This document shows positions 9,529 to 57,174 of a stretch of DNA of 61,565 nucleotides, piece after piece. Source of the stretch: an uncultured Gammaproteobacteria bacterium (lineage in GTDB: Bacteria > Patescibacteriota > Patescibacteriia > Magasanikbacterales > UBA922); contig CAZKAD010000001.1 of NCBI GenBank assembly GCA_964550845.1, positions 197,750 to 259,314 of the forward strand. The letters run 5' to 3'. The notes under the pieces were generated by a model that had not been told where the DNA came from, did not search any database, and saw nothing but the letters and a program-made list of their open reading frames with translations. The translations under genes were made by a program, and so were the position numbers. Numbering within the stretch: position 1 is the first letter of the stretch; each line of letters opens with the position of its first letter.

Positions 9529-9549
9529 TTACAATAATAAATGTGCCTC

Positions 9550-9660
9550 TTAACGTCCTCGAAAGGACTGGTTAAACGTCCTCGAAAGGACTGGTTAAAC
9601 GTCCTCGAAAGGACTAGTTAAACGTCCTCGAAAAAAGGACTGGTTAAACGTCTAGAAAAC
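9550..9660 (+). repeat. GTTAAAC-hairpin element, tandem array (~4.5 units)
   Basis: ttaa(a)cgtcctcgaaaggactgg repeated with period 23 (26 in unit 4), between convergent genes. Confidence 0.9.
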
Positions 9661-11315: not shown

Positions 11316-11681
11316 ATGTCTTCTCGAATTGATGTACTTGCTAAAACCATCTTTACAATTGCTATATTCGGATTGGCCATCTTTTTCACTCTATTGTCAA
11401 TTTACCGAACACCGAATTATCAAGAATGCGATTATAAGTTTTGTACAACTCCTTGTCCGACAAATCCTGATATTTGTAGAGAATATGGCTGTAATGTGTG
11501 CTATAGCAAAGGATCTTGTATTGACAATTGCCAACCTTATCCATTGGCAAGCTTTATCATTTCTGTAATTGCTGCAATTGTAATGTGGATTACAATATTA
11601 TTTTGGCTTTATTATTTGATTAAGGCAGCTCGAAACCATCAGATCGAAGCTCAACAATACGAAGGTTATCGAACTTTTTAA
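11316..11681 (+). CDS. small TM - Cys-rich - TM membrane protein
   Basis: 121 aa: an N-terminal TM (IFTIAIFGLAIFFTLLSI), a 10-Cys segment, then a second TM. The stop TAA lies inside the first GTTAAAC unit. Confidence 0.75.
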   Translation: MSSRIDVLAKTIFTIAIFGLAIFFTLLSIYRTPNYQECDYKFCTTPCPTNPDICREYGCNVCYSKGSCIDNCQPYPLASFIISVIAAIVMWITILFWLYYLIKAARNHQIEAQQYEGYRTF

Positions 11682-11760
11682 ACATCCCTTCGGGATTGGT
11701 TAAACATCCCTTCGGGATTGGTTAAACGGCCCTTCGGGATTGGTTAAACTTCCTTCAAAT
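11678..11760 (+). repeat. GTTAAAC-hairpin element, tandem array (~3.5 units)
   Basis: ttaaacatcccttcgggattgg x2, ttaaacggcccttcgggattgg, and a partial unit. The first unit holds the stop codon of 11316..11681. Confidence 0.9.
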
Positions 11761-12747: not shown

Positions 12748-12755
12748 TTTTGGGC

Positions 12756-13555: not shown

Positions 13556-13557
13556 TA

Positions 13558-13585
13558 TTAAAAGTCTCTTCGAGACTTGTTAAAA
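13558..13585 (+). repeat. GTTAAAC-hairpin element, single variant copy
   Basis: ttaaaagtctcttcgagacttgttaaaa, between octamer 13548 and ATG 13594. Confidence 0.7.
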
Positions 13586-17525: not shown

Positions 17526-17580
17526 AATTTTTATCCAAAAAGAAAGCAATTTATCGTATAGCAATCAAGCAATCGAACCT

Positions 17581-17624
17581 TTAAACTTTTAACCACTTCA
17601 AAGAGTCTCGAAAGACGTTTAACG
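17581..17624 (-). repeat. GTTAAAC-hairpin element, long variant, reverse orientation
   Basis: ttaaacttttaaccacttcaaagagtctcgaaagacgtttaacg. Compare 39953.. and 43711.. (ttaaccacttcagagagtcc...). Confidence 0.75.
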
Positions 17625-17628: not shown

Positions 17629-18717
17629 ATGGATCGATCTTGTATGGTTTGCGCAGCTCATCATGTAATGACCACTGAGTGTGGACATTATATTTGCGGG
17701 GAATGTTTTGAGAACTACCTCGCCATTCGAATGGATGCCGGGTATCAATTCAATTGCCCAGAACCTAATTGCAAGCACATTTTTACTGGGAGAGAACTCA
17801 CCGGATTTATGTTCGGAGAGTTTGGTAAACGATTGAGCAACTATTTGTCTCAACAAATTACCTCAAATCTCTTTCCATTGAAATGTGTTCATTGTACATC
17901 TGAATGGACAATCCCGAAAAAGCCCGAAAATCCATGTGTCTTCTGTGAAACTTGCGCCAATTTCTTTTGTTCCGAATGTAACACTGATTGGCACGAAGGC
18001 AAGAAATGTTCACCGAAGAACGTCGCTCTTGATCTTCGTATTGACGAAGATCAAGACAAATATGGCAATTGTCCAAAGTGCCAACGACTCATCAACAAAG
18101 GTGACGGTTGTGATCATGTCAGATGTGTTTGCGGATTTGAATTCTGGTGGTCTACCAAAGAAGAGTTCAAGATTGCAAGCTGGGATCAAGCTGAACAACT
18201 TCCTTTCCATGAAGTTGTCAGACAAGAAGAGATGAAAAGTCCAATTCCTGGAGTTCGAGGACCTCGACTCGTGGAAGTACCTCGAGTTGTTGAACGGCGA
18301 CTCGCGCAAGTACCTCTTCAGGAAGTACCTCGACGAGAGGTTCCTCGACAAGAGATTCCTCGACCAATTCCACCACCTCTTCCACCTCGACCGACTGGAG
18401 CTCAAAAAGCTTTGCTCAAAGAGGTTCATCAAGACATCAAGATGAAAGAAAAAGCGAACGAGACGATTTATGTCCGCTTTTTCGAAGAACCTCAAATTCC
18501 TCTGAATCGGCAACAACCGAGAATCATCAATCATTGGAAGAAACATCTCGATAAATACGACAAGAAGTATCTACAAGAAAAGATGTATGAGATTGTTCAC
18601 TTCGCGCCTGTCTTTTACTCAAAAGAAGATTTTGTGAATGTACTTGCTTACCGACTGACCTATTATAGTTCAGTCAGTGTCGAGTATCTTCAAAAACTTC
18701 CTCCTCACGTAGCTTAG
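17629..18717 (+). CDS. RBR (RING-IBR-RING) E3 ubiquitin ligase-like protein
   Basis: RING1 is CMVC..CGHYICGEC..CPEPNC. The IBR is CVHC..CVFCETC..CSEC..H..C. RING2 is CPKCQRLINKGDGCDHVRCVCGFEFWW. A Pro-rich EVPR-repeat tail follows. Confidence 0.85.
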   Translation: MDRSCMVCAAHHVMTTECGHYICGECFENYLAIRMDAGYQFNCPEPNCKHIFTGRELTGFMFGEFGKRLSNYLSQQITSNLFPLKCVHCTSEWTIPKKPENPCVFCETCANFFCSECNTDWHEGKKCSPKNVALDLRIDEDQDKYGNCPKCQRLINKGDGCDHVRCVCGFEFWWSTKEEFKIASWDQAEQLPFHEVVRQEEMKSPIPGVRGPRLVEVPRVVERRLAQVPLQEVPRREVPRQEIPRPIPPPLPPRPTGAQKALLKEVHQDIKMKEKANETIYVRFFEEPQIPLNRQQPRIINHWKKHLDKYDKKYLQEKMYEIVHFAPVFYSKEDFVNVLAYRLTYYSSVSVEYLQKLPPHVA

Positions 18718-18797: not shown

Positions 18798-18823
18798 ATC
18801 TTTTTCCTCTTGAGGAAAGAGCA

Positions 18824-18903
18824 GTAAACGTCCCTTCGGGATTGGTTAAACTTCCCTTCGGGATTGGTTAAACGTCCCTTCGGGATTTTCTGAATTGGTT
18901 AAA
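18824..18903 (+). repeat. GTTAAAC-hairpin element, tandem array (3 units) ending ggttaaa-ATG
   Basis: gtaaacgtcccttcgggattgg, ttaaacttcccttcgggattgg, ttaaacgtcccttcgggatt, then ttctgaattggttaaa. Confidence 0.9.
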
Positions 18904-23279: not shown

Positions 23280-23324
23280 TGTTAATGGAAAAATGATTTT
23301 TTTCGTTACAGATAAGTACATTAA

Positions 23325-23359
23325 TTAAACGTCCCGTAGAACTCTCTAAACTAGTTAAA
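23325..23359 (+). repeat. GTTAAAC-hairpin element, long variant
   Basis: ttaaacgtcccgtagaactctctaaactagttaaa, 11 nt before ATG 23370. Confidence 0.75.
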
Positions 23360-26976: not shown

Positions 26977-27054
26977 TGTTCAAACAATAAGATGAATTGA
27001 AAAATGATTTTTCCTTCTCTCGAGAAGGAAAATATATTCATTTCTAATTGTCTC

Positions 27055-27753
27055 ATGGCTCAAGAAATAAATCGAGAACTCCCTGGAGTGGTTAAATGTC
27101 CCGAAGGACCGGTTAAAAACTCTAAACTAGTTAAAGTTAAATTGCTTCGTGCATACAAAGAGTATAAAGTCGAAAATCTTCTCAACTATTTTGATGGTAC
27201 AGAAAAGTTCGATGCTTTGTTCTCAACTGAAGATAAACAAGAAACAAAAGGCATTTTTTCGGTACATTCTCGAGACGATTGGTCAGACATTGATCTTGAC
27301 ATTTCGGATGTAGATGCTTCTATAATTGGTGCAATTGGACCTACTACTCAGTTTAAAAGTATGGTTGCATATTGGAATCTTGGATGTGGTCTTTTCGGTC
27401 CGATAGTGTACGAAAGAAATTTAAGATATCTTGATTTATATAGAGACAGACCTCTTAGAACGAAGTCCCTTATTATCAAGATTAAGGATATTGCATTTAA
27501 TGTGTATAGCATTGAAAGAGTTTTAAAATCACTTGCCAATTTTGTAATTTTCCAGCTATCTCCATTTAAATTGGAATTTGAATGGGGAGCAAATGTTAGG
27601 GAACAAAACGTTCAACAATTTGTAAACTCTTGCGAGAAGATTGCACGAGAAAAAATCGAAAATAAATTTGGAGTTCGAATCGAAACGGAGCTACTTTCGT
27701 TAGACAAATATTGTGGAGGTACATTTTTGTCTGTCTTACGTGCAATTCCATAA
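27055..27753 (+). CDS. hypothetical protein, paralog of 24272..24892, with an in-frame repeat insert near the N-terminus
   Basis: Trimmed to the ATG at 27055 because the longer ORF runs through hairpin 27009..27032. Residues ELPGVVKCPEGPVKNSKLVKV are encoded by element copy 27090..27140 and are absent from the paralog. Confidence 0.75.
   Translation: MAQEINRELPGVVKCPEGPVKNSKLVKVKLLRAYKEYKVENLLNYFDGTEKFDALFSTEDKQETKGIFSVHSRDDWSDIDLDISDVDASIIGAIGPTTQFKSMVAYWNLGCGLFGPIVYERNLRYLDLYRDRPLRTKSLIIKIKDIAFNVYSIERVLKSLANFVIFQLSPFKLEFEWGANVREQNVQQFVNSCEKIAREKIENKFGVRIETELLSLDKYCGGTFLSVLRAIP
27090..27140 (+). repeat. GTTAAAC-hairpin element inside a CDS
   Basis: ggttaaatgtcccgaaggaccggttaaaaactctaaactagttaaagttaa, read in frame as VVKCPEGPVKNSKLVKV. 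Confidence 0.8.
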
Positions 27754-27793: not shown

Positions 27794-27818
27794 TTTTCCA
27801 TTCCATAAAAAGGTGTAT

Positions 27819-27850
27819 TTAAACGTTCCTGGGGAACTGGTTAAAATTGA
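27819..27850 (+). repeat. GTTAAAC-hairpin element
   Basis: ttaaacgttcctggggaactggttaaaattga. The stem gttcc/ggaac is a compensatory variant. Confidence 0.8.
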
Positions 27851-29043: not shown

Positions 29044-29077
29044 GGTTAAACGTCCTTATGGGACTAGTTAAAATTGA
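29044..29077 (+). repeat. GTTAAAC-hairpin element
   Basis: ggttaaacgtccttatgggactagttaaaattga. Confidence 0.85.
29070..29077 (+). promoter_or_regulatory. AAAATTGA octamer fused to the end of a repeat unit
   Basis: 58 nt upstream of ATG 29135. Confidence 0.55.
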
Positions 29078-29769: not shown

Positions 29770-30186
29770 ATGCCTCTCGGTGTGGATTCGGAATTATTTG
29801 AACTGATCGCGGTCGGTCTTTCTTTATTGATGACAATTATTGCCCTCTTTCGTGGAAATTCTTCCCAGGGGCCGTCTACAAACAAGTTCTTGATTATTAC
29901 TGCTCTTGCCTCTGTCCTGCTTGGAACAGGTTCGCTGGCACAACAAACGTATTACAGTCCACATACAACTGAAGGAGTTCGGCAATTATATCGACAGTTA
30001 GATGAGGAAGAGAGACTTGCCCGTCTCGGCAGACAAGCTGAATTTGACCAACATGTCACGAATATGATTGCGGAAAATCAGGCAGAGATCCGTCGGAGAA
30101 ACCAAGAAATGGGATATGAACCACCACTATTGCGAGTGAGACCGGAGAATGACGGACGACCGATTAAATATTTTGGAGATCGATAA
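29770..30186 (+). CDS. small membrane protein
   Basis: Trimmed to the ATG at 29770 because hairpin 29703..29729 lies in the longer ORF. Contains TM LIAVGLSLLMTIIALF and a second hydrophobic segment. Confidence 0.65.
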   Translation: MPLGVDSELFELIAVGLSLLMTIIALFRGNSSQGPSTNKFLIITALASVLLGTGSLAQQTYYSPHTTEGVRQLYRQLDEEERLARLGRQAEFDQHVTNMIAENQAEIRRRNQEMGYEPPLLRVRPENDGRPIKYFGDR

Positions 30187-30244
30187 AAGGTACGTTAACC
30201 CGCCAGAAAAAATGAATTCTTTTCTTTCTAAAAAGAAAGCAAAG

Positions 30245-30583
30245 ATGATTACGGTACAACGATCTGATTTATTGGCTAAAAGACCTCGAGATTTCTGGGT
30301 TTATATTTTGTCAGCGAATAAGGCTGCATATCCCACACCAGATACCAAGGCTTATCAAATGATTGACAAGTTGCTTGATGATCCAAAATGTAATATTTGG
30401 TTGATCAAACGTCCCGTAGGACTGATCAAACAAGAAGATAATAATGTAACTATTCTCTCAAATGATCAAGTGCTTTGGGAAGAGAGTTTCGATTCGAATG
30501 CCGATCTAGATACAATTCTCCTTATCTTTGAATTGCTTGACAAAAAAGATGATCAATCTTCGAAACGAAAACAACCATCCTGA
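30245..30583 (+). CDS. hypothetical protein with an in-frame repeat insert
   Basis: Start at ATG 30245 (alternative 30212). WLIKRPVGLIKQ is encoded by element copy 30399..30431. Confidence 0.6.
   Translation: MITVQRSDLLAKRPRDFWVYILSANKAAYPTPDTKAYQMIDKLLDDPKCNIWLIKRPVGLIKQEDNNVTILSNDQVLWEESFDSNADLDTILLIFELLDKKDDQSSKRKQPS
30399..30431 (+). repeat. element variant (GATCAAAC flanks) inside a CDS
   Basis: ggttgatcaaacgtcccgtaggactgatcaaac, read as WLIKRPVGLIK. Confidence 0.7.
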
Positions 30584-30634: not shown

Positions 30635-30657
30635 CAAATGCTAAACAAAAATTTTTA

Positions 30658-30680
30658 CTAGTCCCACGGGACATTTAATC
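30658..30680 (-). repeat. element copy at the 3' end of the macro gene
   Basis: ctagtcccacgggacatttaatc, containing the stop codon 30675..30677. Confidence 0.6.
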
Positions 30681-31169
30681 ATCAAGAGAATAAACATTCA
30701 CTTTCACAACTGGACAAACTATTTTAATCAATAACATTTTCACAACATCCCATGAAAGTTGATCAAGTCCACAACCAATTCTCGGGATTGATATTTCTTT
30801 AACATTTAACGAATTGCATAATCGAACTAAATATTCTAAACATAATTGAAGAGTCTTCAATGTAGGTTTATGATAATATTTATCTTTAGTGACCAAATAA
30901 AATAGATATCGGTCATTTTCTTTCAAGTATGCAACTTGTCCAACCGAAACAGATTGCTTTTCGAGTTCATCGACGCGTCCAAATTTAAATCTAAAATGAT
31001 AAGCAATCCCCTTCATCATTTTGAAATCTCTACTCACACAGTGTCCAAGACTATTCTTGACATCATCGAAAAGATTTCCTCGGATCTCAGAGAATCGATG
31101 GGAAGGTTCAAGTCCCTTTGGGACGGTTTCAAGTCCCTTTGGGACGGTTTCAACTTGAGAGATGTTCAT
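30675..31169 (-). CDS. macro domain protein, TARG1/OARD1-like
   Basis: 164 aa with GNLFD...LGHCVSRDFKMMKGIAYHFRFKFGRVDEL...YLFYLVTKDKYYHKPT...ISIPRIGCGLDQLSW, collinear with the OARD1/TARG1 macro fold as I recall it. The N-terminal ETVPKGL x2 comes from a repeat. Confidence 0.88.
   Translation of the reverse strand: MNISQVETVPKGLETVPKGLEPSHRFSEIRGNLFDDVKNSLGHCVSRDFKMMKGIAYHFRFKFGRVDELEKQSVSVGQVAYLKENDRYLFYLVTKDKYYHKPTLKTLQLCLEYLVRLCNSLNVKEISIPRIGCGLDQLSWDVVKMLLIKIVCPVVKVNVYSLDD
31105..31154 (-). repeat. element variant (GTTGAAAC flanks), 2 units, inside the macro gene
   Basis: The plus strand reads ggttcaagtccctttgggacggtttcaagtccctttgggacggtttcaac. The 21-nt period encodes ETVPKGL x2. Confidence 0.75.
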
Positions 31170-35982: not shown

Positions 35983-36036
35983 TCTTTTCAAATTTGATTG
36001 AATGGGTTTTGATTTCGTTAAAGATTAAAAGATTAA

Positions 36037-36063
36037 TTAAATCTTCCGAAGGACTGGTTAAAC
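36037..36063 (+). repeat. GTTAAAC-hairpin element
   Basis: ttaaatcttccgaaggactggttaaac, upstream of the patatin gene. Confidence 0.7.
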
Positions 36064-36090: not shown

Positions 36091-36987
36091 ATGTCCTTCC
36101 TTTCAACAGTGCCGCAGAAAGAATTTCCTCTCGATCAAACAAATACTTTGGTCATTTCTGGCGGAGGAATCAAAGGTATTTCTGCATTAGGAGCCTTGTT
36201 TTACTTTGAGAAAACGTATGACATGAAGATTAGTTCATATGCTGGAACTTCAATCGGTTCAATCATTTGTACCTTATTAGCAATTGGATATAAGGCAATT
36301 GAAATTAAATATTACATTGAAAAGCAAAAATTTTTCAATGACATTCAAAAGCTTCAACTACACAAACTTCTCAATGGTCAAGGCATTCTTCCTTGGCAAA
36401 TCATTAGTCATCATCTCGAAAAGATGATTCGAGATAAAGTTGGCTATATTCCCACTTTTCGAGACATTAAAAATCGATTTGGTAATCATCTCACTATTGT
36501 AGCTTTTAACGTGACTGACCGTCGTCCTGAGTTTTTTAATGTTGATACTCATCCAAATCTTTCGGTGATTGAAGCAATTCGAATGAGCGCAAATGTCCCT
36601 CTGTTATTTGATCGTTGTCGATACAATGGAAAGGAATATCTTGATGGAGGTTTAATTTGTAATTATCCAATTGAATATTATCATGAAGCACATCATAAAA
36701 TTCTCGGCATTAATCTCGGAGGAGAAAATATGGTTTTCGGAGATGAAAATTATATCCAATTTCTGCTTGCAATTCTCTCGATGCCATACAATTACCATAA
36801 TCCACACAAAATTAAGGGATGTATTCAAGACCTGAATATTCCTTCAACCGCGTCGGCATTTAATTTTAATTTGTCTGAACATCAGCGAAAAGAAATGTTT
36901 AATATTGGTTTTCAACTGGCCAAAACTAAATTTCCCCAACCTGAACCAGTTAGAAAAATGCCATTGAGGAAGAGCGCCTCATTTTAA
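36091..36987 (+). CDS. patatin-like phospholipase
   Basis: 298 aa with the oxyanion motif ISGGGIKG, the nucleophile elbow GTSIGS (GxSxG), and the catalytic Asp in DGGLICNYP. Confidence 0.9.
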   Translation: MSFLSTVPQKEFPLDQTNTLVISGGGIKGISALGALFYFEKTYDMKISSYAGTSIGSIICTLLAIGYKAIEIKYYIEKQKFFNDIQKLQLHKLLNGQGILPWQIISHHLEKMIRDKVGYIPTFRDIKNRFGNHLTIVAFNVTDRRPEFFNVDTHPNLSVIEAIRMSANVPLLFDRCRYNGKEYLDGGLICNYPIEYYHEAHHKILGINLGGENMVFGDENYIQFLLAILSMPYNYHNPHKIKGCIQDLNIPSTASAFNFNLSEHQRKEMFNIGFQLAKTKFPQPEPVRKMPLRKSASF

Positions 36988-37011
36988 CCAGTCTCCGTAA
37001 AGACGTTTAAA
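36984..37011 (-). repeat. GTTAAAC-hairpin element
   Basis: ttaaccagtctccgtaaagacgtttaaa, containing the patatin stop codon 36985..36987. Confidence 0.75.
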
Positions 37012-37046
37012 ATATAAAGTTACTGTTCCCCAAAGGGAAAAGTAAA

Positions 37047-37979
37047 TTAAATTTCGTACAGACAATCCCGACATCTCACAAAATTTTTGATTTTATTAAT
37101 TACATTGAAAGTTGTATAATCTTCATTCTCGTCTTCACTTTTAAGAAAGCTAGTAATCAAATTGAACACACGAGGATCATACAAATCTTTTGACAAAAAG
37201 AATGGCCAATAAGTTTCACTTTCTTTTTCAGGATGTTCCACGATGAACAATCCAACCTCAATCAAGGTGGCCAATTTATCTTCATGTGAATAAGGTAGAA
37301 AAATTCGTGGAACATCGAGACAAGTTTTCTTGTCTTGTTTCATCGCTTCCCGAATGGCAAGTCCTTCTATCATTTTATCAAGTTCAAGTATTCCTCCACC
37401 ATAACATATCCAAATTTTTAACTGTTGTATTGGCATTGAAACAAGTCCATCAATAGCAGTATCAATTAAATCGAATTCATCTTGGAATCTCTTATTGTTT
37501 GGTAAAAATTTACATCCAATCATACAAACATTATTCAAATGATAACCCAAATAATCATATTCGGCAAACAAAATCGAAGTGATTTGAGTTCTTTTCCCAG
37601 AATAAACGCGAACAGGTAATCGATTGAGAAATTCGAATAATACCGAGTACGAACAATATGGAAGGAAAATTGCTACCGAATGAAAACTAACTAAATTTTT
37701 TCTTTCTTTTGCCCGACGTTCAATCGGTTTCTTAGTTTTAGCAGCATTCTCAAAGGGATCTTTTTTATGCGTATCTGCAAATGCGACCAAGTCAAGCGAG
37801 GCGTCAAGGTCAAGGTTGAGTTTAAACCAATTCCAGCTGTAACTGTATTGGAATCTTGATAATCCAATAGTAATGCCAAGAGTTGATTTTTTCAGCATCA
37901 TCTGTTCAAGACGAGTTAAAAAAGGAATTAAATCTCGGTCGTCTGCCCGACAAAGATATCCAGTTCTCTGCTCGAACAT
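37047..37979 (-). CDS. LYDPRLL-motif family protein, subtype A
   Basis: 310 aa. N-terminus MFEQRTGYLCRADDRDLIPFL is paralogous to 39056..39931. C-terminal FLSKDLYDPRVFNLITSFLK. AAAATTGA on the gene strand at 38041..38048. Confidence 0.8.
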   Translation of the reverse strand: MFEQRTGYLCRADDRDLIPFLTRLEQMMLKKSTLGITIGLSRFQYSYSWNWFKLNLDLDASLDLVAFADTHKKDPFENAAKTKKPIERRAKERKNLVSFHSVAIFLPYCSYSVLFEFLNRLPVRVYSGKRTQITSILFAEYDYLGYHLNNVCMIGCKFLPNNKRFQDEFDLIDTAIDGLVSMPIQQLKIWICYGGGILELDKMIEGLAIREAMKQDKKTCLDVPRIFLPYSHEDKLATLIEVGLFIVEHPEKESETYWPFFLSKDLYDPRVFNLITSFLKSEDENEDYTTFNVINKIKNFVRCRDCLYEI

Positions 37980-38081: not shown

Positions 38082-38984
38082 TTAGTACATCAAAGCATTA
38101 TTCGTCGATCCGACTATTCTTGTAATATGAATTGCATTCATCATTTCCGCTACCTTCTGGAATAAATCAAAGTATTTGGAATCATCTGCGAATTGAGCTA
38201 TCAGACAAAGCAATCTTGGATCATACACTTCTCGGGTTAGAAAAAAGTTGAACACTCCTTTTGATTGAGATAAACCATTTACAACCAAGTTATCAAAAAT
38301 TGGCATCCAAATAAAAGCTCGACGGGGAGAAAAATTATCTCGGAATATTCTTGGGCATTCAACTCGATATTCGGCTTCTAAATCGTGAAAGATGCGTAAG
38401 ATAGCCGGAAAGAAATCATCCATTAGCATCGTGTACAACGAAATATTTGTTTTTGGAAGGACTTGAACAAAAGCACGATAATTGTCAGCAAATTTTTGAA
38501 CGAGAAACTCTCTCCGGGATGAATTTTGATCAAAGAAATAGTTAGCATACGATCTTGTATCCGAATAATTAGCAAGTCGAGCTTTTTGTTCGAGCTCTTC
38601 ATGATCAATACGATTATAGAATAATGCTTCAAATTTAAATGGAACTTGAGGAAGAAATGGAATAAAATCATTCTCAAAATTAATCTCGATGTTATATTGA
38701 TTTAATATCTCGCAAATTTCATCTGGAAAGAAATCAGATATTTTTTCTTTCCCATAGGTATTGAGAATAATTGATATTTGTTTTTGATTTACCAAATCAA
38801 CAGAATCTGGTGAAGTTTTACTTAATTTTGTGATTGAGACATAAATACATTTCCGTTGATTTTTTTGAAATGGATCATTTAAGATCCGAAATATTGGAGG
38901 TTTTCGTCTGCCCTTAACAGCATCTTTCCATTTATGATATAAATCATTCATTGTCGATTTAATCTCCTTCGACCTGATCATCAT
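38082..38984 (-). CDS. LYDPRLL-motif family protein, subtype B
   Basis: 300 aa. IPFLPQVPFKFEALFYNRIDHEEL is paralogous to 40042..40872. C-terminal FLTREVYDPRLLCLIAQFADDS. Confidence 0.8.
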   Translation of the reverse strand: MMIRSKEIKSTMNDLYHKWKDAVKGRRKPPIFRILNDPFQKNQRKCIYVSITKLSKTSPDSVDLVNQKQISIILNTYGKEKISDFFPDEICEILNQYNIEINFENDFIPFLPQVPFKFEALFYNRIDHEELEQKARLANYSDTRSYANYFFDQNSSRREFLVQKFADNYRAFVQVLPKTNISLYTMLMDDFFPAILRIFHDLEAEYRVECPRIFRDNFSPRRAFIWMPIFDNLVVNGLSQSKGVFNFFLTREVYDPRLLCLIAQFADDSKYFDLFQKVAEMMNAIHITRIVGSTNNALMY

Positions 38985-39055: not shown

Positions 39056-39931
39056 TTATCTTGTAAATTGATTGATTAGTATCAATAATCGAGGATCGTA
39101 CAAATCTTGAAGAAAAAAGGATTGTAATAATGATTCGGTATCAGAGAGACCAAGAATGATCAATCGATGAAACTTATTTTCGAGTAGACAATTGTCTTTG
39201 TATGGAAAAACTCTCTGAACATCTAAACAAGTCTTTTTCTTCTCTTGAATAACATCTTGAATAACATCTCGAATAGCAGTATCTTCGACCAACAAAAATG
39301 TTTCCTCTGACTCTGTGTATGAATTACCATCGTGAATCCATAATTGGAGATGTCGAACTGGAATTGAAAGTATCCCTTTGAGAAGAACCCGAACGAATTG
39401 TTTAAGAGGTCTTTCGGGATATTTAACCAGTCCTTCGGGACGTTTAACAAGACCTTGAGGATATATTTTAAATCGAAATATAGTAGTATTGTTTATGTGA
39501 TGTCCTGTATAAGGATATTCGGCGATGAGAATTGATGAAATTTTACTTTTGTTTCCTGAATAAACACGAGTTGGAAACTGATTAATAAAGTCAATAACCA
39601 TTGTGTGTTTTTCTTTTGGAATCATCAGATCGACACAATGAAACATAATTAAATTTGAATGATATTCACCTTGGTATCCAATATTCTTTGATTCCGAATG
39701 ACCATAGTAAACAAACTTTCTTTGTTCTCGTTCAAATTGTTCCAAATCTAACGATTCGTTAAGATCGAGATTTAATAAACACCATTCCCAGTGATAAGAG
39801 TATTCTTCATTATCATCAAGATAAATACCAAGCGTGGCTTTGTCCACCATCATATCTTTAAGATAATTTAAGAAAGAAAATAAATCTCTGTCATCAGACC
39901 GAGAACATAATCCCGATCTATCCGAAAACAT
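39056..39931 (-). CDS. LYDPRLL-motif family protein, subtype A, with a 3-unit in-frame repeat insert
   Basis: 291 aa with N-terminus MFSDRSGLCSRSDDRDLFSFL and C-terminal end FFLQDLYDPRLLILINQFTR. YPQGLVKRPEGLVKYPERPLKQ is encoded by 39400..39472. Confidence 0.8.
   Translation of the reverse strand: MFSDRSGLCSRSDDRDLFSFLNYLKDMMVDKATLGIYLDDNEEYSYHWEWCLLNLDLNESLDLEQFEREQRKFVYYGHSESKNIGYQGEYHSNLIMFHCVDLMIPKEKHTMVIDFINQFPTRVYSGNKSKISSILIAEYPYTGHHINNTTIFRFKIYPQGLVKRPEGLVKYPERPLKQFVRVLLKGILSIPVRHLQLWIHDGNSYTESEETFLLVEDTAIRDVIQDVIQEKKKTCLDVQRVFPYKDNCLLENKFHRLIILGLSDTESLLQSFFLQDLYDPRLLILINQFTR
39400..39472 (-). repeat. GTTAAAC-hairpin element, 3 tandem units inside a CDS
   Basis: The plus strand reads tttaagaggtctttcgggata tttaaccagtccttcgggacg tttaacaagaccttgaggatat. 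On the gene strand it is read as YPQGLVKRPEGLVKYPERPLKQ. Confidence 0.85.
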
Positions 39932-39945: not shown

Positions 39946-40046
39946 TGGACGTTTAACCACTTCAGAGAGTCCTGGGACGTTTAAAATCAATTTATTTAAT
40001 CAGTCTCGAAGAAAAGTTTAATCAGTCCTTTGGACGTTTAATCAAA
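39946..40046 (-). repeat. GTTAAAC-hairpin element, array of 3-4 divergent units
   Basis: ttggacgtttaaccacttcagagagtcctgggacgtttaaaatc...tttaatcagtctcgaagaaaagtttaatcagtcctttggacgtttaatc. Confidence 0.8.
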
Positions 40047-40872
40047 TTTCATTGGTGTCAATTTCTAATATCGATCGAGCAAGTCGAGACTCCCAAGATT
40101 GCCCCGTTTCATCTCTAAACTCATTGATCAGACAAAGCAATCTTGGATCATATAAATCTTGAGTAAGAAATTGGAACAACGGACCCGATGAGTAAATCGA
40201 TATACTATTCACTACAAGATTGTCCAGCTTAACTAAAGATTCATTTGATTCAAATTCCTCAGATACTTGAAATGTCCTTTTAACTTCACAATTTTCTTCA
40301 ACCTGATGAAAAGCTTTTAAAATTTCAACCGGAAAACTTCGAACAATCACAATATAAGAAGAAATTTTTGATCTTGACAGCGCCTTAAGAAAAATGTGGT
40401 AATTATGTGAGAGTTCTTCGACGAGAAACTTTCGTCTTTCTTGATCTTCATCAAAAAAGTAATTTGTAAAAGAAGAGATAAAGAAATGATCATATAATGT
40501 CTGACATTTTTGTCTTAATTTTTTATCATCAATTTGATTGTAAAAAACTGCTTTGAATGCAAAAGGTATCTGAGGAATAAGATGAACTGAATTCATAATG
40601 AAAGAAATTGAGACATCACAACGCGATATTTTCTCGATTATCTTTTTTGGAAACAATTTATCAAAAGTTTCATTTGTTTGAGGTTCGAGAGAAATGGTGA
40701 TGGAATCTGGGCAAATAACTACATTATTGTACCGCATTGCACTTCTCCCGTGGGTATGAATGAATACTTTTTTCTTTCCTTCGAGAGAGAAAGATTTTTT
40801 CCAATCATCAAAGTGCTGAATTGTTACTGACGAGTGCATCTTTATTAATTGATCAGATAAAAAGAAGATCAT
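40042..40872 (-). CDS. LYDPRLL-motif family protein, subtype B
   Basis: 276 aa with LIPQIPFAFKAVFYNQIDDKKL and C-terminal FLTQDLYDPRLLCLINEFRDET. Confidence 0.8.
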   Translation of the reverse strand: MIFFLSDQLIKMHSSVTIQHFDDWKKSFSLEGKKKVFIHTHGRSAMRYNNVVICPDSITISLEPQTNETFDKLFPKKIIEKISRCDVSISFIMNSVHLIPQIPFAFKAVFYNQIDDKKLRQKCQTLYDHFFISSFTNYFFDEDQERRKFLVEELSHNYHIFLKALSRSKISSYIVIVRSFPVEILKAFHQVEENCEVKRTFQVSEEFESNESLVKLDNLVVNSISIYSSGPLFQFLTQDLYDPRLLCLINEFRDETGQSWESRLARSILEIDTNEI

Positions 40873-42153: not shown

Positions 42154-43710
42154 ATGTGGGAATGGATTATCCCGACAATTGTCGTGATTATTCTCCTTCT
42201 TTTGATTGTCCGAAAGATGAGTCCCCCAAAGATACAGACAACAGCGTTTGATCTTCCGCCTCAAGCAAGTAATTGGCAACAAGTCTTAAATGTTGATGCT
42301 CAACGTCATGCCGTTCAACAATGGTGTACTGCACAAGGGTATGATTATCGTGTTCCAACCTCAACTGGAGATTTCGGAGGATGTTTATACAATAAGAGTT
42401 CATGTTTGGCCGATTCAAATCCCCATTGGGTACATTGTACTGCAATCACTGGAACCTCAGGCGGAATTGATCATAATGGAAAACCATGTTCTCTCAATGC
42501 CAAACCTTATCTTGAATGGGATGACAATCGAGGAGTATGTGTGCAAAGTTTCTATCCACCAGCTTTAATTTCTGGAGTTTGTGAAGCTCGAGGACTTGGC
42601 CCTTGGTATCCAGGAAAATTGGATTGTGATGCAAGTGGATATTGTCAAATCAATCCAAATGATGCTCCCACTTGCCAACTTACTTCCGATTATTGCGATC
42701 GAATGGGACTTGATTATTCATCTTCAAATCAAGGAGATTGTACATTAAGTGATGCTCAAAATGTGATTGAAGGACTAATTGGAAAAACAGTCACTCGTAC
42801 AGTCAAACGAAATACCGAAGCTATGATTCGAGAATGTGGAGATAATGTGTTCAGTGGACGTTGCGCTGCCAGTATTGGCACTGAACTGACAACTTTTGAT
42901 CAAATTGCACTCAATACAGCTGAATCGGAATTCAAAGGTTATATGGAAGAGATGAAAAGTAAATGTTCTGGAGATCTTTATTCTGGAGTTGATAAATTTG
43001 CTGGCTGTGCCGAAAGTCTTTTCCCTGGTTTTTACATTGGACAACAAGCCGAGCACTTTGTCGACGGAATGTTAAATGGAGCTCTTGGCTGGATCCCAGG
43101 AATGCCTTCAGATTTAATCGCAAAAGCAAATGGATATATTGCTAAATATGGAATTATCGCATTTAATGCAATTGTGACTGTGGGGCAAGATGCGATTAAA
43201 GCTTTTGATATTGCTGGAGATATTATGTATTCAGCACTCAAGAAAATTGGTCCAGTTGGAACGATTATTTCAGGAGCGATTTCAAATGTGATTGCCTTCG
43301 GTGAGAAAATGGCCAGTATTATTGCCAATACAGCCGAAGAAGCTCTTCATATTTTTAGTAATACAATTGTTCCAGCTGCTTATCATGTGTTTGAAGCAAT
43401 TACAGACGCGGTGCTTCATCCAAAAGAATTTTTCACTAACATTGCCAATGATGTTGATCAATTCTTTAAAGATCCGGTCGGATCAATTAAAAGTGCAATC
43501 ACTGAAATTGCAAAGGTTGGAGGAGAAGTTCTTGATGCCGCCAAAATGGTGATTCATAAGCTAACCGAAGTCGCATCGAGAGTTGAAGCGGCTCTTGCCT
43601 CAGCCTTAATCGACATTGCCAATAAAATTGCCGAAGCATTTAGTACAGTTGGTCGAGATATTTCAAGTGCTTATCACGCTGTTAAGCATTTCTTCGAATC
43701 GATATTTTAA
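42154..43710 (+). CDS. membrane-anchored Cys-rich protein with an Ala/Ile-rich helical C-terminal half
   Basis: Trimmed to ATG 42154 (MWEWIIPTIVVIILLLLIV), which removes the overlap with 41194..42087. A ~200-aa segment with many Cys is followed by a long amphipathic A/I/G-rich region. Confidence 0.75.
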   Translation: MWEWIIPTIVVIILLLLIVRKMSPPKIQTTAFDLPPQASNWQQVLNVDAQRHAVQQWCTAQGYDYRVPTSTGDFGGCLYNKSSCLADSNPHWVHCTAITGTSGGIDHNGKPCSLNAKPYLEWDDNRGVCVQSFYPPALISGVCEARGLGPWYPGKLDCDASGYCQINPNDAPTCQLTSDYCDRMGLDYSSSNQGDCTLSDAQNVIEGLIGKTVTRTVKRNTEAMIRECGDNVFSGRCAASIGTELTTFDQIALNTAESEFKGYMEEMKSKCSGDLYSGVDKFAGCAESLFPGFYIGQQAEHFVDGMLNGALGWIPGMPSDLIAKANGYIAKYGIIAFNAIVTVGQDAIKAFDIAGDIMYSALKKIGPVGTIISGAISNVIAFGEKMASIIANTAEEALHIFSNTIVPAAYHVFEAITDAVLHPKEFFTNIANDVDQFFKDPVGSIKSAITEIAKVGGEVLDAAKMVIHKLTEVASRVEAALASALIDIANKIAEAFSTVGRDISSAYHAVKHFFESIF

Positions 43711-43766
43711 TTACTTCAGAGAGTCCCGAGGGATGTTTAACCAGTCTCAAAAGACGTTTAACCACG
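43707..43766 (-). repeat. GTTAAAC-hairpin element, 2 units
   Basis: ttaattacttcagagagtcccgagggatgtttaaccagtctcaaaagacgtttaaccacg, containing stop 43708..43710. Confidence 0.8.
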
Positions 43767-44328: not shown

Positions 44329-44352
44329 ATTCAATCTTCGAGAAGATTGAAT
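44329..44352. terminator. hairpin downstream of 44401..45402
   Basis: Arms attcaatctt / aagattgaat, loop cgag. Confidence 0.55.
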
Positions 44353-44392
44353 AAACGTTCTTTCTGAATTGGTTATACGTCCTTCGGGGATA
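44352..44392 (+). repeat. GTTAAAC-hairpin element (degenerate unit plus good unit)
   Basis: taaacgttctttctgaattggttatacgtccttcgggga. It shares ttctgaattggtta with 18887... Confidence 0.7.
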
Positions 44393-44400: not shown

Positions 44401-45402
44401 TTAAAACAAACCAATCAAATTGATCGAGCGAGGATCATACAATTCTTCTGTTAAGAAAGAATGAAAAATACTTGCATTTTTAGCATTTAACCAATCCGAT
44501 AGGACGTTTAACCCGTTAGCAATTAATTGGCAAAAATTCAAATCATTCCAGCACACCGACTTCGATCGCTGTTGGCAAAATCGATGTAGATAATCGATGC
44601 CTGGGTAATCTTCGAAATACCAACACGCAATTAATCTCGCTCCGTGTTTGTTATTTAACTCTTCTGTTTTGTCTGCTGCGAGATAGGAAATGTTTTCAAT
44701 CGGAAGTTTACCTGGATATTGAAGACAATTAAGCAGCATCTTTCGATTATTAATTTCAAGAGTTTTGATGCTTTTTACCTGATTAAAGTAACTCATATCG
44801 CCGTGAAAAAATGGAAACATATAGAAAAGATCACAGACAAGTCCGTTAAGAAATCGATATTGCTCAGTATCAACAAATGGCAACAAGTATCCGAAATGGA
44901 GTCCTTGGTAAGGAAAATTTTCTTTTGCTTGTAGAGAGTAAAATCTTTGAAGAAAAGACCAATCTTGTCTCGGTTCGTCATATGTAAAAAATGGAAGTTC
45001 AATATGGATCACGTTCAACTCGCTAATATCAATATCAGGTAAAGCAGTAACAAGCGCGAAGTTTTCTTTATCGGCTGGTTCCCGGGGTCGAGGTTGAAGC
45101 GAAATGATAAAAAATTCGGTATTTTGTTCACTCTCAAGATTATTTTCGTTTATTGGTTTTTCTCCGTCAATCTTTTGCAGACCGAGTAAATTCTCAAAAC
45201 TTCCAAGCGAAGTAAATATTTTAGCAATCCCATCCGGAAATCTACCTTGTTCAAATTGATCCAGCATATCTTCAAGTTCCTTTTTTGACGAAAGTTCAAT
45301 CGTTTGCGGGAGTTCGTAACGAAACATTTCAGTTGAACTTCTTTCGGAGGGGTGTTTGATTTGATAAACAATTCTTTGAATCAATTTTCTTAGCCAGGTC
45401 AT
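44401..45402 (-). CDS. LYDPRLL-motif family protein with an in-frame repeat insert
   Basis: 333 aa ending FLTEELYDPRSINLIGLF. GLNVLSDWLNAK is encoded by element copy 44486..44515. Confidence 0.8.
   Translation of the reverse strand: MTWLRKLIQRIVYQIKHPSERSSTEMFRYELPQTIELSSKKELEDMLDQFEQGRFPDGIAKIFTSLGSFENLLGLQKIDGEKPINENNLESEQNTEFFIISLQPRPREPADKENFALVTALPDIDISELNVIHIELPFFTYDEPRQDWSFLQRFYSLQAKENFPYQGLHFGYLLPFVDTEQYRFLNGLVCDLFYMFPFFHGDMSYFNQVKSIKTLEINNRKMLLNCLQYPGKLPIENISYLAADKTEELNNKHGARLIACWYFEDYPGIDYLHRFCQQRSKSVCWNDLNFCQLIANGLNVLSDWLNAKNASIFHSFLTEELYDPRSINLIGLF
44486..44515 (-). repeat. GTTAAAC-hairpin element inside a CDS
   Basis: The gene strand reads gggttaaacgtcctatcggattggttaaatgc, translated as GLNVLSDWLNA. 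Confidence 0.85.
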
Positions 45403-46335: not shown

Positions 46336-46363
46336 CTTAACTAGTCTTGAAGAGACGTAATTG
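46336..46363 (-). repeat. GTTAAAC-hairpin element immediately 5' of a start codon
   Basis: The gene strand reads ttacgtctcttcaagactagttaagc-ATG. Confidence 0.7.
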
Positions 46364-53228: not shown

Positions 53229-53279
53229 AACGTTTAACCAGTTCAAAAAGTCCAAAAAGTTCTTTGGAAGGTTTAACTG
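53229..53279 (-). repeat. degenerate GTTAAAC-element copies
   Basis: aacgtttaaccagttcaaaaagtccaaaaagttctttggaaggtttaactg. Confidence 0.45.
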
Positions 53280-55046: not shown

Positions 55047-55060
55047 TGGGCTGGTCGAAA
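55032..55060 (+). repeat. degenerate GTTAAAC-element copy holding a stop codon
   Basis: gttaaacgttcctaatgggctggtcgaaa. TAA 55044..55046 ends 53400..55046. Confidence 0.5.
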
Positions 55061-57172: not shown

Positions 57173-57174
57173 AA

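What the first reader, a model, noticed from the sequence alone, without database searches (positions are those of the whole stretch)
9550..9660. Abundant ~22-23 bp GGTTAAAC-stem-loop unit scattered as arrays and single copies (24 or more loci)
The unit is (G)GTTAAAC, a 4-5 bp stem (usually GTCC/GTCCC), a 4-6 nt loop (often TTCG, which would give a C(UUCG)G tetraloop if transcribed), the complementary stem, then TGG and the next GTTAAAC. Head-to-tail arrays lie at 9550..9660, 11678..11760, 18824..18903, 57175..57248, 39946..40046 and 43707..43766. Single copies are listed as features. Stems differ between loci yet stay complementary: gtcc/ggac, atccc/gggat, gttcc/ggaac (27819..), gtct/agac (13558.., 17581..) and gttct/agaac (57219..). 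That is compensatory variation preserving the hairpin. Several ORFs terminate inside a unit, with stops at 11679..11681, 36985..36987, 43708..43710 and 55044..55046. By my reading 17 copies point with local transcription, 3 against, and 4 lie between convergent genes. No transposase- or integrase-like ORF is in the window, so if the unit is mobile it is non-autonomous. I do not recognise this consensus from any described element.
Basis: seen in the sequence. Interest (0 to 1): 0.85.

Follow-up and report, generated by a model that had tools for sequence, protein, structure and literature searches.

The report
Tiny hairpin repeat spreading in giant virus
A 22-base hairpin-forming DNA unit flanked by GTTAAA is scattered, singly and in head-to-tail arrays, through a Mimivirus-like giant-virus genome; it is gained and lost between close strains, even inside genes, so it behaves like a miniature selfish repeat rather than a fixed gene-end signal.

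Summary
The unit is (G)GTTAAAC, a 4-5 bp stem (GTCC-like), a 3-7 nt loop, the complementary stem, then TGGTTAAA. It occurs at 23 loci (about 40 copies; a related 21-bp subfamily adds a 24th listed part), 17 of them in the 10% of the window that is intergenic. The stems co-vary.

The window comes from a Mimiviridae-like giant virus. It has the AAAATTGA early promoter and long unique palindromes after stop codons (the 'hairpin rule'). The units are a separate layer:
- they are conserved in sequence and have short stems;
- they often sit beside a generic palindrome;
- they also lie in divergent gaps, in 5' leaders and in frame inside coding sequences.

Related strains show clean presence/absence of units, always as one versus two copies of a GTTAAA-like hexamer. 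One case is polarised as a gain (a 21-bp in-frame insertion) and one as a loss.

Best reading (0.55): a non-autonomous, REP/RPE/MITE-like mini-palindromic repeat that lands at GTTAAA and expands locally by tandem duplication. Copies in 3' UTRs may serve as auxiliary hairpins. No transposase is in the window and the mobilising mechanism is unknown. I rate it a new variant of a known kind, of moderate interest.

The parts
9547..9660 (+). Array A: 4 full units (GTCCT-cgaa-AGGAC, period 23) plus a degenerate fifth. It lies in a convergent gap, after the generic palindrome 9501-9528.
   Evidence: At the orthologous site, strain L036 is empty and the 99.7%-identical strain L035 is filled.
11676..11760 (+). 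Array B: 3.5 units (ATCCC-ttc-GGGAT, period 22). The TAA stop of ORF 11316..11681 lies in the first unit.
13556..13584 (+). Single unit C (AAGTCTC-ttc-GAGACTT), between AAAATTGA (13548) and the ATG at 13594 of the Rad50-like gene.
17575..17624 (-). Single long-variant unit D (GTCT-ttcg-AGAC + TCTTTGAAGTGGTTAAA). It lies in a divergent gap, antisense within the 5' leader of the IBR gene 17629..18717.
   Evidence: It is absent in the 83% relative L038, where a single TTTCAAC occupies the site.
18821..18903 (+). Array E: 3 units (GTCCC-ttc-GGGAT), the last a long variant ending in GGTTAAA directly before the ATG at 18904.
23323..23359 (+). Degenerate long-variant unit (TTAAACGTCCCGTAGAACTCTCTAAACTAGTTAAA) in a tandem-gene gap.
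27090..27117 (+). Unit F (GTCC-cgaa-GGAC) in the N-terminal part of ORF 27004..27753, translated as VVKCPEGPVK.
27817..27845 (+). Single unit G (GTTCC-tgg-GGAAC), after the generic palindrome 27770-27793. Its 3' TTAAA overlaps an AAAATTGA.
29044..29072 (+). Single unit H (GTCC-ttatg-GGAC) in a divergent gap, immediately upstream of AAAATTGA (29070).
30403..30430 (+). Variant unit (GATCAAAC-GTCC-cgta-GGAC-TGATCAAA) inside ORF 30149..30583, translated as LIKRPVGLIK.
30653..30680 (-). Single unit I (GTCC-cgtg-GGAC). The stop codon of ORF 30675..31169(-) lies in its TTAAA. Convergent gap with a 16-bp generic palindrome.
31099..31153 (+). 21-bp subfamily (GGTTTCAA-GTCCC-ttt-GGGAC, 2.7 copies) in the N-terminal coding region of the Macro-domain ORF 30675..31169(-), translated as VPKGLE repeats.
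   Evidence: The same subfamily forms arrays in L027.
36035..36062 (+). Half unit K (..CCGAAGGACTGGTTAAAC) in a tandem-gene gap.
36983..37012 (-). Single unit L (GTCT-ttacgg-AGAC) in a convergent gap. The stop codon of ORF 36091..36987(+) lies in its TTAAA.
39397..39456 (-). Array M: 2.7 units, period 21, in frame inside ORF 39056..39931(-), translated as GLVKRPEGLVKYPERPLKQ. The segment is absent from paralogue 37047..37979.
39946..40046 (-). Array N: about 4 units, including a long variant, in a tandem-gene gap. The stop of ORF 40042..40872(-) abuts the first unit.
43707..43766 (-). Array O: 2 units (GTCT-tttg-AGAC; ATCCC-tc-GGGAC long variant) in a convergent gap. The stop of ORF 42154..43710(+) lies inside it.
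   Evidence: Units are also present at the orthologous 3' end in L001.
44349..44377 (+). Degenerate unit (GGTTATAC-GTCC-ttcg-GGGA). It is the only copy antisense to both flanking genes of a tandem pair.
44486..44513 (-). Unit P (GTCC-tatc-GGAT) in frame inside ORF 44401..45402(-), adding the residues NVLSDWL.
   Evidence: A 21-bp segment is absent in the 92.7%-identical strain L006 and in all paralogues.
46336..46362 (-). Degenerate unit Q (GTCT-cttca-AGAC-TAGTTAAG) in a divergent gap, abutting the ATG of ORF 45462..46334(-).
   Evidence: In L006 the stem is kept and only the loop has changed.
53233..53278 (-). Degenerate long-variant unit R in a divergent gap.
55030..55052 (+). Degenerate unit S (GTTAAAC-GTTCC-taat-GGGCT). 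The stop of ORF 53400..55046 lies in its loop.
57173..57247 (+). Array T: 3 units (GTCCT/AGGAC, GTCCT/AGGAC, GTTCT/AGAAC) after the generic palindrome 57149-57172.
   Evidence: It is reproduced identically in the independent assembly L007.
61127..61154 (-). Unit U (GTCC-cgaa-GGAC), antisense inside the NADAR + phosphatase ORF 60275.., just after the phosphatase domain. Its 26-nt core is identical to unit M1.

Best explanation
The unit is a non-autonomous, self-propagating miniature palindromic repeat, specific to one clade of Mimiviridae-like giant viruses.

Shown:
- Each copy is about 17-19 nt (C, 4-5 bp stem, loop, stem, TG) bracketed by a direct repeat of a GTTAAA-like hexamer.
- Sites that lack the unit in related strains carry a single GTTAAA-like hexamer.
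- Copies sit in intergenic DNA of every type and in frame inside genes.
- Copies within one array resemble each other more than copies in other arrays, which points to local tandem duplication after arrival.

Inferred:
- New copies arrive at (G)TTAAA sites in one of two ways. Either an unidentified nuclease or transposase encoded elsewhere in the virus or host acts on the hairpin plus its conserved flank, or replication switches template by microhomology, using GGTTA/GTTAAA as the homology.
- Because the landing site contains TAA, units often sit on stop codons or supply a new one.
- Selection then filters the copies. Only 21-bp, stop-free versions survive inside genes.
- In UTRs, copies co-oriented with transcription are preferred. 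There the hairpin may serve as an auxiliary substrate of the virus's hairpin-based mRNA 3'-end machinery.
For: Dispersal:
- 23 loci; 17 lie in the 10% of the window that is intergenic (p = 6e-13).
- An identical 26-nt core occurs in two unrelated coding sequences, 39422-39449 (sense) and 61127-61154 (antisense).

Presence/absence at exact unit boundaries:
- Unit P is a 21-bp in-frame segment missing in the 92.7%-identical strain L006: GGGTTA|AACGTCCTATCGGATTGGTTA|AAT against GGGTTACAT. It is also missing in all paralogues, so it is a gain.
- At the array-A site, L036 has a single TTAAA. The 99.74%-identical L035 and the window are filled, so L036 shows a loss.
- Unit D is absent in the 83% relative L038, which has a single TTTCAAC there; the promoter-to-ATG distance is 78 nt against 111 nt.
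- L038 carries a unit right after the IBR-gene stop codon where the window has none.
- A second paralogue in another virus (L001 13495..14352) has an independent unit, in the opposite orientation, at the same GGNTTA ('GL') codons.

Not simply the native terminator:
- 34 perfect palindromes with stems of at least 10 bp (null about 0.7), mostly 0-50 nt after stop codons, already supply that layer.
- Units co-occur with such palindromes at loci A, C, E, G, I and T.
- Units C, D and E lie between AAAATTGA and the ATG.
- Four units lie in divergent gaps.
- Single units fold weakly, -5 to -8 kcal/mol with z of -0.2 to -2.6, against -9 to -10 kcal/mol with z about -3.6 for the generic palindromes.

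Clade specificity with sequence conservation:
- Units with the same flanks occur in relatives at 83%, 76% and 61% protein identity and in L027/L028.
- There are none in IMG/VR or in prokaryotic genomes.

Arrays are not assembly artefacts: L007-L009 and L037 reproduce them.
Against: - No transposase, integrase or HUH nuclease is in the window, and the rest of the roughly 259-kb genome could not be read.
- At 17-23 bp the unit is far below the size of any accepted MITE.
- Only four polymorphic sites were found, and only two are polarised.
- Loss, and possibly gain, can arise from slippage or template switching between short direct repeats, without any dedicated mobility machinery.
- Orientation in tandem-gene gaps is biased: 8 of 9 units are co-oriented (p = 0.04).
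- Occupancy is shared at orthologous sites: the array-A site in the window and in L035, and the locus-O site in the window and in L001. Both observations would also fit a selected RNA-level function.
- At about half of the unit-bearing 3' ends (B, L, N, O, S) the unit is the only hairpin present.
Confidence: 0.55

Rival explanations
1. The units are primarily functional RNA signals. They would be a sequence-defined subclass of the Mimiviridae hairpin 3'-end (cleavage/polyadenylation) signal, or a UTR stability element, recognised through GGUUAAAC plus the stem. They would be duplicated because they are useful.
For: - 12 of 17 intergenic loci lie downstream of a co-oriented gene.
- Stop codons lie in or next to units at B, I, L, N, O and S and in L028.
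- At B, L, N, O and S no generic palindrome is present.
- At the Topo II 3' end the window has only a generic palindrome, while L001 has a palindrome plus a unit.
- Orientation in tandem-gene gaps is 8 of 9 co-oriented.
- The stem co-varies.
- The hairpin rule is established for this virus family (PMC4402537).
Against: - The published signal is explicitly not conserved in sequence, and it uses long stems. Here stems are 4-5 bp and the folds are weak.
- Units co-occur with generic palindromes at six loci.
- Sense-oriented units at C and E lie between promoter and ATG, where an efficient 3'-end signal would truncate the mRNA.
- Four units lie in divergent gaps and five or six inside coding sequences.
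- Close strains differ by presence or absence of a unit with no replacement.
Confidence: 0.22
2. The units are DNA binding sites for a viral protein, for example one involved in genome packaging, nucleoid organisation, replication or recombination. GTTAAAC would be the recognition sequence and the hairpin or cruciform an accessory.
For: - The flanks are more conserved than the stems across relatives.
- Multimeric arrays would raise binding avidity.
- Sites are spaced roughly one per 3 kb.
Against: - Stem covariation favours a single-stranded fold over duplex recognition.
- Orientation follows gene direction.
- Sites are dispensable between strains 99.7% identical.
- Copies inside coding sequences are unexpected for organised binding sites.
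- No candidate binding protein was identified.
Confidence: 0.08
3. These are ordinary minisatellites. Independent local slippage arrays in AT-rich spacers would resemble each other only because of shared composition or a shared ancestral spacer, with no dispersal.
For: - Copies within an array are near-identical and the periods are regular.
- Loss in L036 is compatible with slippage between TTAA repeats.
Against: - 23 loci share a 16-nt flank signature plus a co-varying stem, far above the shuffled expectation.
- Single copies are common.
- Identical 26-mers occur in two unrelated coding sequences.
- A lineage-specific in-frame gain was found.
- The same unit occurs in viruses whose spacers are otherwise unalignable.
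Confidence: 0.05

Closest known systems
Bacterial REP/BIME elements and the 22-25 nt SMAG-type repeats, mobilised by RAYT (IS200/IS605-like Y1 transposases). From my own knowledge, not tested here.
   Same: Size class of 20-40 nt. An imperfect palindrome with a conserved short sequence at its foot. Mostly extragenic, often at gene 3' ends. Single copies and clusters. Non-autonomous. Secondary roles as mRNA hairpins.
   Different: The host is a eukaryotic giant virus. The conserved flank is GTTAAAC, not GTAG. Arrays are head-to-tail direct repeats that share the flank, not the alternating orientation of BIMEs. Units are flanked by a duplicated hexamer. No RAYT-like gene is in the window. Copies also occur in frame inside genes.
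Rickettsia palindromic elements (RPE; Ogata et al. 2000, from my own knowledge).
   Same: A palindromic selfish repeat found both between genes and inserted in frame within protein-coding genes, where it adds a short peptide at linkers or termini.
   Different: RPEs are about 100-150 bp and bacterial. Here the insert is 21 bp (7 residues), and tandem arrays are common.
MITE-like palindromic repeats of giant viruses: Pandoravirus Submariner and hAT-type MITEs (PMC4495683, PMC6004678) and Pithovirus M1/M2 (PMC10664404).
   Same: Non-coding palindromic repeats that have colonised intergenic DNA of a giant virus. They have apparent target-site duplications, are clustered, and have no transposase in the viral genome.
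   Different: Those elements are 116-422 bp, or about 140 bp with 47-54 bp terminal inverted repeats, and their target duplication is TA or 2-8 bp. Here the unit is 17-23 bp with a 4-5 bp stem, the landing site is GTTAAA-like, arrays are head-to-tail, and copies are translated inside genes.
Mimiviridae 'hairpin rule' polyadenylation signals (Byrne et al. 2009; Priet et al. 2015, PMC4402537).
   Same: Hairpin-forming sequences downstream of stop codons in a virus that uses the AAAATTGA early promoter. The window clearly has this layer, and units in 3' UTRs could be processed the same way.
   Different: Hairpin-rule palindromes are unique in sequence and have long stems. The units are conserved in sequence, have short stems, are repeated, are polymorphic, and are also found in 5' leaders, divergent gaps and coding sequences.

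Membership tests
Mimiviridae hairpin-rule 3'-end signal | A palindrome or hairpin located just downstream of the stop codon of a co-oriented gene. | tested here: inconclusive
   12 of 17 intergenic loci qualify. Four lie in divergent gaps and three between promoter and ATG.
Mimiviridae hairpin-rule 3'-end signal | The signal is defined by structure and is not conserved at the nucleotide level (PMC4402537). | tested here: not met
   The units share GGTTAAAC/TGGTTAAA flanks and a GTCC-type stem. By contrast, the window's 34 generic palindromes are mostly different in sequence; three of them share a TTCATCTC core.
Mimiviridae hairpin-rule 3'-end signal | A long, stable stem. | tested here: not met
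   Stems are 4-5 bp, with folds of -5 to -8 kcal/mol and z of -0.2 to -2.6. Generic palindromes have stems of 10-16 bp, about -9 to -10 kcal/mol and z about -3.6.
Mimiviridae hairpin-rule 3'-end signal | Transcripts are cleaved and polyadenylated within the hairpin. | not testable with these tools
   No RNA data are available for this virus.
MITE (non-autonomous DNA transposon) | Target-site duplication on insertion, shown by comparing empty and filled sites. | tested here: met
   Three comparisons show a single against a duplicated GTTAAA-like hexamer. Each has up to one mismatch, and microhomology-mediated copying would give the same pattern.
MITE (non-autonomous DNA transposon) | Terminal inverted repeats and a size of about 50-800 bp. 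| tested here: not met
   The only inverted repeat is the 4-5 bp stem, and the unit is 17-23 bp.
MITE (non-autonomous DNA transposon) | A related autonomous element or transposase. | tested here: inconclusive
   None in the 60 window ORFs scanned. The rest of the roughly 259-kb genome and the host could not be read.
REP/BIME (RAYT-mobilised) | A 20-40 nt imperfect palindrome with a conserved tetranucleotide at its 5' foot. | tested here: inconclusive
   Size and architecture are analogous, but the motif is GTTAAAC, not GTAG.
REP/BIME (RAYT-mobilised) | Clusters of REPs in alternating orientation. | tested here: not met
   All arrays are head-to-tail direct repeats.
REP/BIME (RAYT-mobilised) | A cognate RAYT / Y1 HUH transposase gene in the genome. 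| tested here: inconclusive
   None in the window. The rest of the genome was not available.
Rickettsia palindromic element-like in-frame selfish DNA | A palindromic repeat inserted in frame in protein-coding genes, absent from orthologues or paralogues. | tested here: met
   Unit P is 21 bp (7 residues), absent in L006 and in all paralogues. The segment carrying units M is absent from paralogue 37047..37979. Unit U lies after the phosphatase domain of a NADAR protein.
Rickettsia palindromic element-like in-frame selfish DNA | An element of about 100-150 bp in Rickettsia. | tested here: not met
   The unit is 21-23 bp and the host is a giant virus.
piggyBac-type TTAA-specific transposon or MITE | A TTAA target duplication with terminal inverted repeats that begin CCC and end GGG. 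| tested here: not met
   TTAA lies within the duplicated hexamer, but the termini read ACGTCC...GGACTGG.

The most novel reading that the evidence does not exclude
This would be an actively mobile, virus-specific hairpin element of only about 20 bp, smaller than any described transposable element. An enzyme encoded by the giant virus (or its host) would recognise GTTAAAC plus the stem and insert the element at GTTAAA sites. Besides building arrays in UTRs, it would remodel viral proteins by 7-residue in-frame insertions and new stop codons. In effect, a eukaryotic-virus counterpart of the bacterial REP/RAYT system.
Probability: 0.25. Interest if true: 0.75.

Novelty: new variant of a known kind. 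Interest (0 to 1): 0.55.

Why it matters
Palindromic repeats that invade giant-virus genomes are known from pandoraviruses and pithoviruses. Those elements are over 100 bp, and their spread has been inferred mostly from copy number.

This case differs in three ways. The repeat is tiny. Its landing site is defined. Gain and loss between near-identical strains can be seen directly, including in-frame insertions that change proteins and stop codons. All of this occurs in a Mimiviridae-like virus, whose own mRNA 3'-end system is built on hairpins.

The element therefore offers a tractable system for two questions:
- How do short repeats spread in cytoplasmic DNA-virus genomes: by a dedicated nuclease or by template switching?
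- Are selfish hairpins co-opted as transcript-end signals?

It also has practical uses. It gives a strain-typing marker, and it explains why several of the public-assembly contigs fetched here break at or inside these units.

Tried and rejected
- Rfam (gathering thresholds) and tRNA scans of the window found nothing.
- IMG/VR scans:
  - The exact unit pattern gave 0 hits.
  - A Topo II-based locus search found no relatives.
  - The periodic pattern GGTTAAAC-N-TGGTTAAAC-N-TGGTTAAA gave 12 hits. All are unrelated tandem repeats that merely contain GGTTAAAC. Only L012/L014/L015 also have a small hairpin, and I regard that as chance.
- The metagenome scan gave 12 hits, of which only L027 and L028 are true relatives. 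Five others (L022, L024, L025, L029, L031) are coding sequence reading LKLPKLGxVK, which I recognise as a TnpB-like motif from memory; it was not tested. The rest are chance.
- The prokaryotic-genome scan gave 0 hits.
- Cluster look-ups gave no names.
- A peptide-motif origin (KRPEGLVK) was rejected. Intergenic arrays have periods of 22-23 bp, and the same DNA is read in different frames and on different strands in different genes.
- I looked for a G-U against A-C asymmetry in imperfect stems as a test of strand-specific RNA folding. By eye the count is about 6 to 3, with non-independent copies, so it is not decisive.
- I tested whether units replace generic palindromes at 3' ends. About half of unit-bearing ends have a palindrome, against about 60% of ends without units, so there is no clear association (read).
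- L001-L005 and L007-L009 showed no polymorphism; they are the same strains.
Full report

Yes. The region 9547-9660 reads as four near-perfect head-to-tail copies of GGTTAAAC-GTCCT-cgaa-AGGAC-T, plus a degenerate fifth.

Tandem Repeats Finder reports arrays of period 22-23 at 9552-9652, 11678-11753, 18825-18887 and 57175-57247, and a period-21 array at 39401-39456. Direct reading confirms the arrays at 39946-40046 and 43707-43766 and many single copies.

The frequency is far above chance:
- GTTAAAC occurs 31 times against 7.9 +/- 2.6 expected.
- A strict scan (perfect stem plus at least 11 of 16 flank matches) finds 22 units against 2.6 in Markov shuffles.
- A covariance model built from 21 units finds 17 non-overlapping matches at E < 0.002, including copies not used for training.
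- The 22-specified-base pattern TTAAACGTCCN{3,8}GGACTGGTTAAA has no match in 596 Gb of prokaryotic genomes but three in the window.

The stem pairs in 95% of cells, against 27-59% in slid registers, and four of five pairs show double changes. Array copies are not independent. Counted per locus, G-C to A-T, C-G to T-A at position 3, and C-G to T-A at position 4 each still occur at separate loci.

My curated census is 23 loci and about 40 copies, plus a 21-bp subfamily at 31099-31153. Seventeen of the 23 loci lie in the 10% of the window that is intergenic (p = 6e-13).

**2. Context**

The window belongs to a nucleocytoplasmic large DNA virus. Identified genes include a fused Topo II, two Ser/Thr kinases, a P9 minor capsid protein, a Rad50/SMC-like ATPase, thymidine kinase, patatin, collagen-repeat proteins, Skp1 and NADAR.

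Two features mark it as Mimiviridae-like:
- AAAATTGA occurs 32 times, 24 of them within 150 nt upstream of a co-oriented ATG, typically 40-75 nt.
- There are 34 perfect palindromes with stems of at least 10 bp (null about 0.7). Twenty-seven are intergenic, and most lie 0-50 nt after a stop codon.

These are the early promoter and the sequence-non-conserved hairpin polyadenylation signal described for Mimiviridae (PMC4402537).

The source contig is about 259 kb. Identical sequence occurs in three Logan assemblies and one NCBI assembly, so the arrays are not assembly artefacts.

**3. Anatomy of the unit**

Left flanks of single or first copies are not conserved beyond TTAAAC. Right flanks are not conserved beyond TTAAA. 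A copy is therefore C + stem-loop-stem + TG(G), bracketed by direct GTTAAA/TTAAA repeats. In arrays, neighbouring copies share that hexamer.

A long variant carries TCTCTGAAG between the stem and TGGTTAAA. It is often the last unit of an array (loci D, E, N, O; also in L038).

A 21-bp subfamily with flank GGTT(T)CAA occurs at 31099-31153 and as arrays in L027.

RNA folds of single units are modest. The predicted structure sometimes extends through UUAA/UUAA pairing.

**4. Where the units sit**

- Tandem-gene gaps: 9 loci, of which 8 are co-oriented with the genes (p = 0.04).
- Convergent gaps: 5 loci.
- Divergent gaps: 4 loci.
- Coding sequence: 5-6 loci.

They co-occur with a generic palindrome at loci A, C, E, G, I and T. 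They are the only hairpin at loci B, L, N, O and S.

Units C and E (sense) and D (antisense) lie between AAAATTGA and the ATG. The promoter-to-ATG distances at D and E (111 and 114 nt) are the longest among intergenic promoter copies in the window, and the excess is about the length of the units.

Inside ORFs the units are translated:
- GLVKRPEGLVKYPERPLKQ in ORF 39056..39931
- VVKCPEGPVK in ORF 27004..27753
- LIKRPVGLIK in ORF 30149..30583
- GLNVLSDWLN in ORF 44401..45402
- antisense FNQSFGTFKL, just after the phosphatase domain of a NADAR protein

Two of these copies, in unrelated genes and in opposite orientations relative to the gene, share an identical 26-nt core.

**5. Comparison with relatives**

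I found a 92.7% DNA-identity strain (L006) and relatives at 83% (L038), 76% (L001-L005) and 61% (L035, L036) protein identity. I also found two contigs, L027 and L028, from the WGS set JACCDN01. All of the more distant relatives examined over intergenic DNA carry units with the same flanks, at a similar density.

Four sites differ cleanly by presence or absence of units.

| Site | Filled | Empty | Polarity |
|---|---|---|---|
| Unit P, in ORF 44401..45402 | window: GGGTTA\|AACGTCCTATCGGATTGGTTA\|AAT | L006: GGGTTACAT | gain |
| Array A | window and L035: units, then TGG-TTAAATAATTTC | L036: ...GATATT-TTAAATAATTTC | loss |
| Unit D | window: TTTAAAC...GTTTAAC | L038: single TTTCAAC | not polarised |
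| After the IBR-gene stop | L038: TAGCTTA\|AACGTCCAAAGGAC... | window: TAGCTTA\|GTTAGAGG | not polarised |

- At P, an alignment of the six window paralogues and their relatives shows that none has the 7 extra residues, so the unit is a gain in the window's lineage.
- At A, L035 and L036 are 99.74% identical to each other. The outgroup (the window) is filled, so L036 has lost the array.
- A paralogue in L001 carries an independent unit, in the opposite orientation, at the same GGNTTA ('GL') codons.

In every case the empty allele has one GTTAAA-like hexamer and the filled allele has two.

**6. Interpretation**

These facts fit a dispersed, duplicative element better than a positional signal.

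The most economical model has three steps:
- A short palindromic repeat lands at (G)TTAAA.
- It is then amplified locally, since copies within an array are near-identical.
- Selection filters the copies: in-frame, stop-free versions survive in genes, and mostly sense orientation survives in UTRs.

The landing site contains TAA. This explains why ORFs end inside units, without invoking a termination function.

The mobilising step is not shown. Two mechanisms remain open:
- a nuclease or transposase acting on hairpin plus flank, analogous to REP/RAYT or IS200/IS605 chemistry;
- microhomology-mediated template switching on GGTTA/GTTAAA.

The window has no transposase. Its only nuclease-like candidate is a T5orf172-domain protein.

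Several observations keep an auxiliary RNA role plausible for copies in 3' UTRs, and they are the main support for the rival view that RNA function is primary:
- the orientation bias;
- shared occupancy at two orthologous sites;
- unit-only 3' ends.

That rival is weakened by short stems, sequence conservation, co-occurrence with generic palindromes, sense copies in 5' leaders, and dispensability between near-identical strains.

**7. Comparison with what is known**

The closest functional analogues are bacterial REP/BIME and SMAG repeats and Rickettsia RPEs (from my own knowledge). The closest precedents in giant viruses are the Pandoravirus MITEs and the Pithovirus M1/M2 repeats.

The unit fails the defining features of each family:
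- MITE: size and terminal inverted repeats.
- REP/BIME: the GTAG motif, alternating orientation and a RAYT gene.
- RPE: size.
- piggyBac: the termini.
- Hairpin-rule signals: sequence non-conservation and long stems.

I therefore class it as a new variant of a known kind, namely small palindromic interspersed repeats, and not as a member of any named family.

**8. Verdict**

A role as a 3'-end signal is at best secondary.

Interest is moderate (0.55).

Noticed in passing
window-wide, e.g. 6076-6099, 8202-8225, 9501-9528, 13510-13535, 24214-24241, 30601-30634, 31488-31515, 48519-48542: There are 34 perfect palindromes with stems of at least 10 bp (null about 0.7). Of these, 27 are intergenic and most lie 0-50 nt after stop codons, often with a tcga or ttcg centre. 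This is a Mimivirus-style 'hairpin rule' layout in an unnamed virus.
   Followed up: partly
window-wide, e.g. 13548, 16648(-), 20656, 29070, 31179/31211, 59343, 60234: AAAATTGA, the Mimiviridae early promoter octamer, occurs 32 times. Of these, 24 lie within 150 nt upstream of a co-oriented ATG, typically 40-75 nt.
   Followed up: partly
window 8202-8225, 9501-9528, 43772-43800: Three terminator-like palindromes share the same core, TTCATCTC..GAGATGAA. The generic hairpins are therefore not all unique, and some may also be duplicated.
   Followed up: no
window 31099-31153 and 5372-5406; L027 9867-9960 and 13921-14040: A 21-bp sister repeat (GGTTyCAA-GTCCC-loop-GGGAC) encodes VPKGLE(P/T) repeats on the opposite strand in a Macro-domain protein and in an L027 ORF. 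It also forms a perfect 5.7-copy non-coding array after a stop codon in L027.
   Followed up: partly
window 37047-46334 (ORFs 37047..37979, 38082..38984, 39056..39931, 40042..40872, 44401..45402, 45462..46334, all on the minus strand): A cluster of six paralogous ORFan genes ends in a conserved ..GL..FL(T/C)x(D/E)LYDPR(L/V)L motif. Relatives occur in L001 and L006. Two members carry unit insertions right after the 'GL' codons.
   Followed up: partly
window 52499-52968 and 53769-54121: Large degenerate tandem repeats (periods 42/84 and 33/78/90) lie inside overlapping ORFs on both strands. They look like low-complexity, Q/L-rich or charged coding repeats.
   Followed up: no
window 55175-55282, 61484-61565, 427-480, 16499-16575: Perfect or near-perfect tandem repeats unrelated to the unit: 39 bp x 2.8, 27 bp x 3.0, 26 bp x 2.1 and 30 bp x 2.6. 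The 27-bp repeat encodes ELRKSEEKE repeats at the C-terminus of the NADAR-phosphatase ORF.
   Followed up: no
window 12697-13104: An unusually long (408 nt) gap with no ORF called, visibly more GC-rich on reading than neighbouring spacers. It has no Rfam or tRNA hit, and its RNA fold is no better than shuffled sequence (z = +0.7).
   Followed up: yes
L005 end, L035 start, L038 end, L028: Contigs of relatives from public assemblies end exactly in or next to units. The repeat therefore breaks short-read assemblies of these viruses.
   Followed up: no
L012, L014, L015 (IMG/VR contigs, 24-27% GC): An unrelated AT-rich viral contig family has a tandem repeat, GGTTAAAC-AAGGC-aaac-GCCTT, with the same flank-plus-hairpin architecture. 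It is probably coincidence, but this was not excluded.
   Followed up: no
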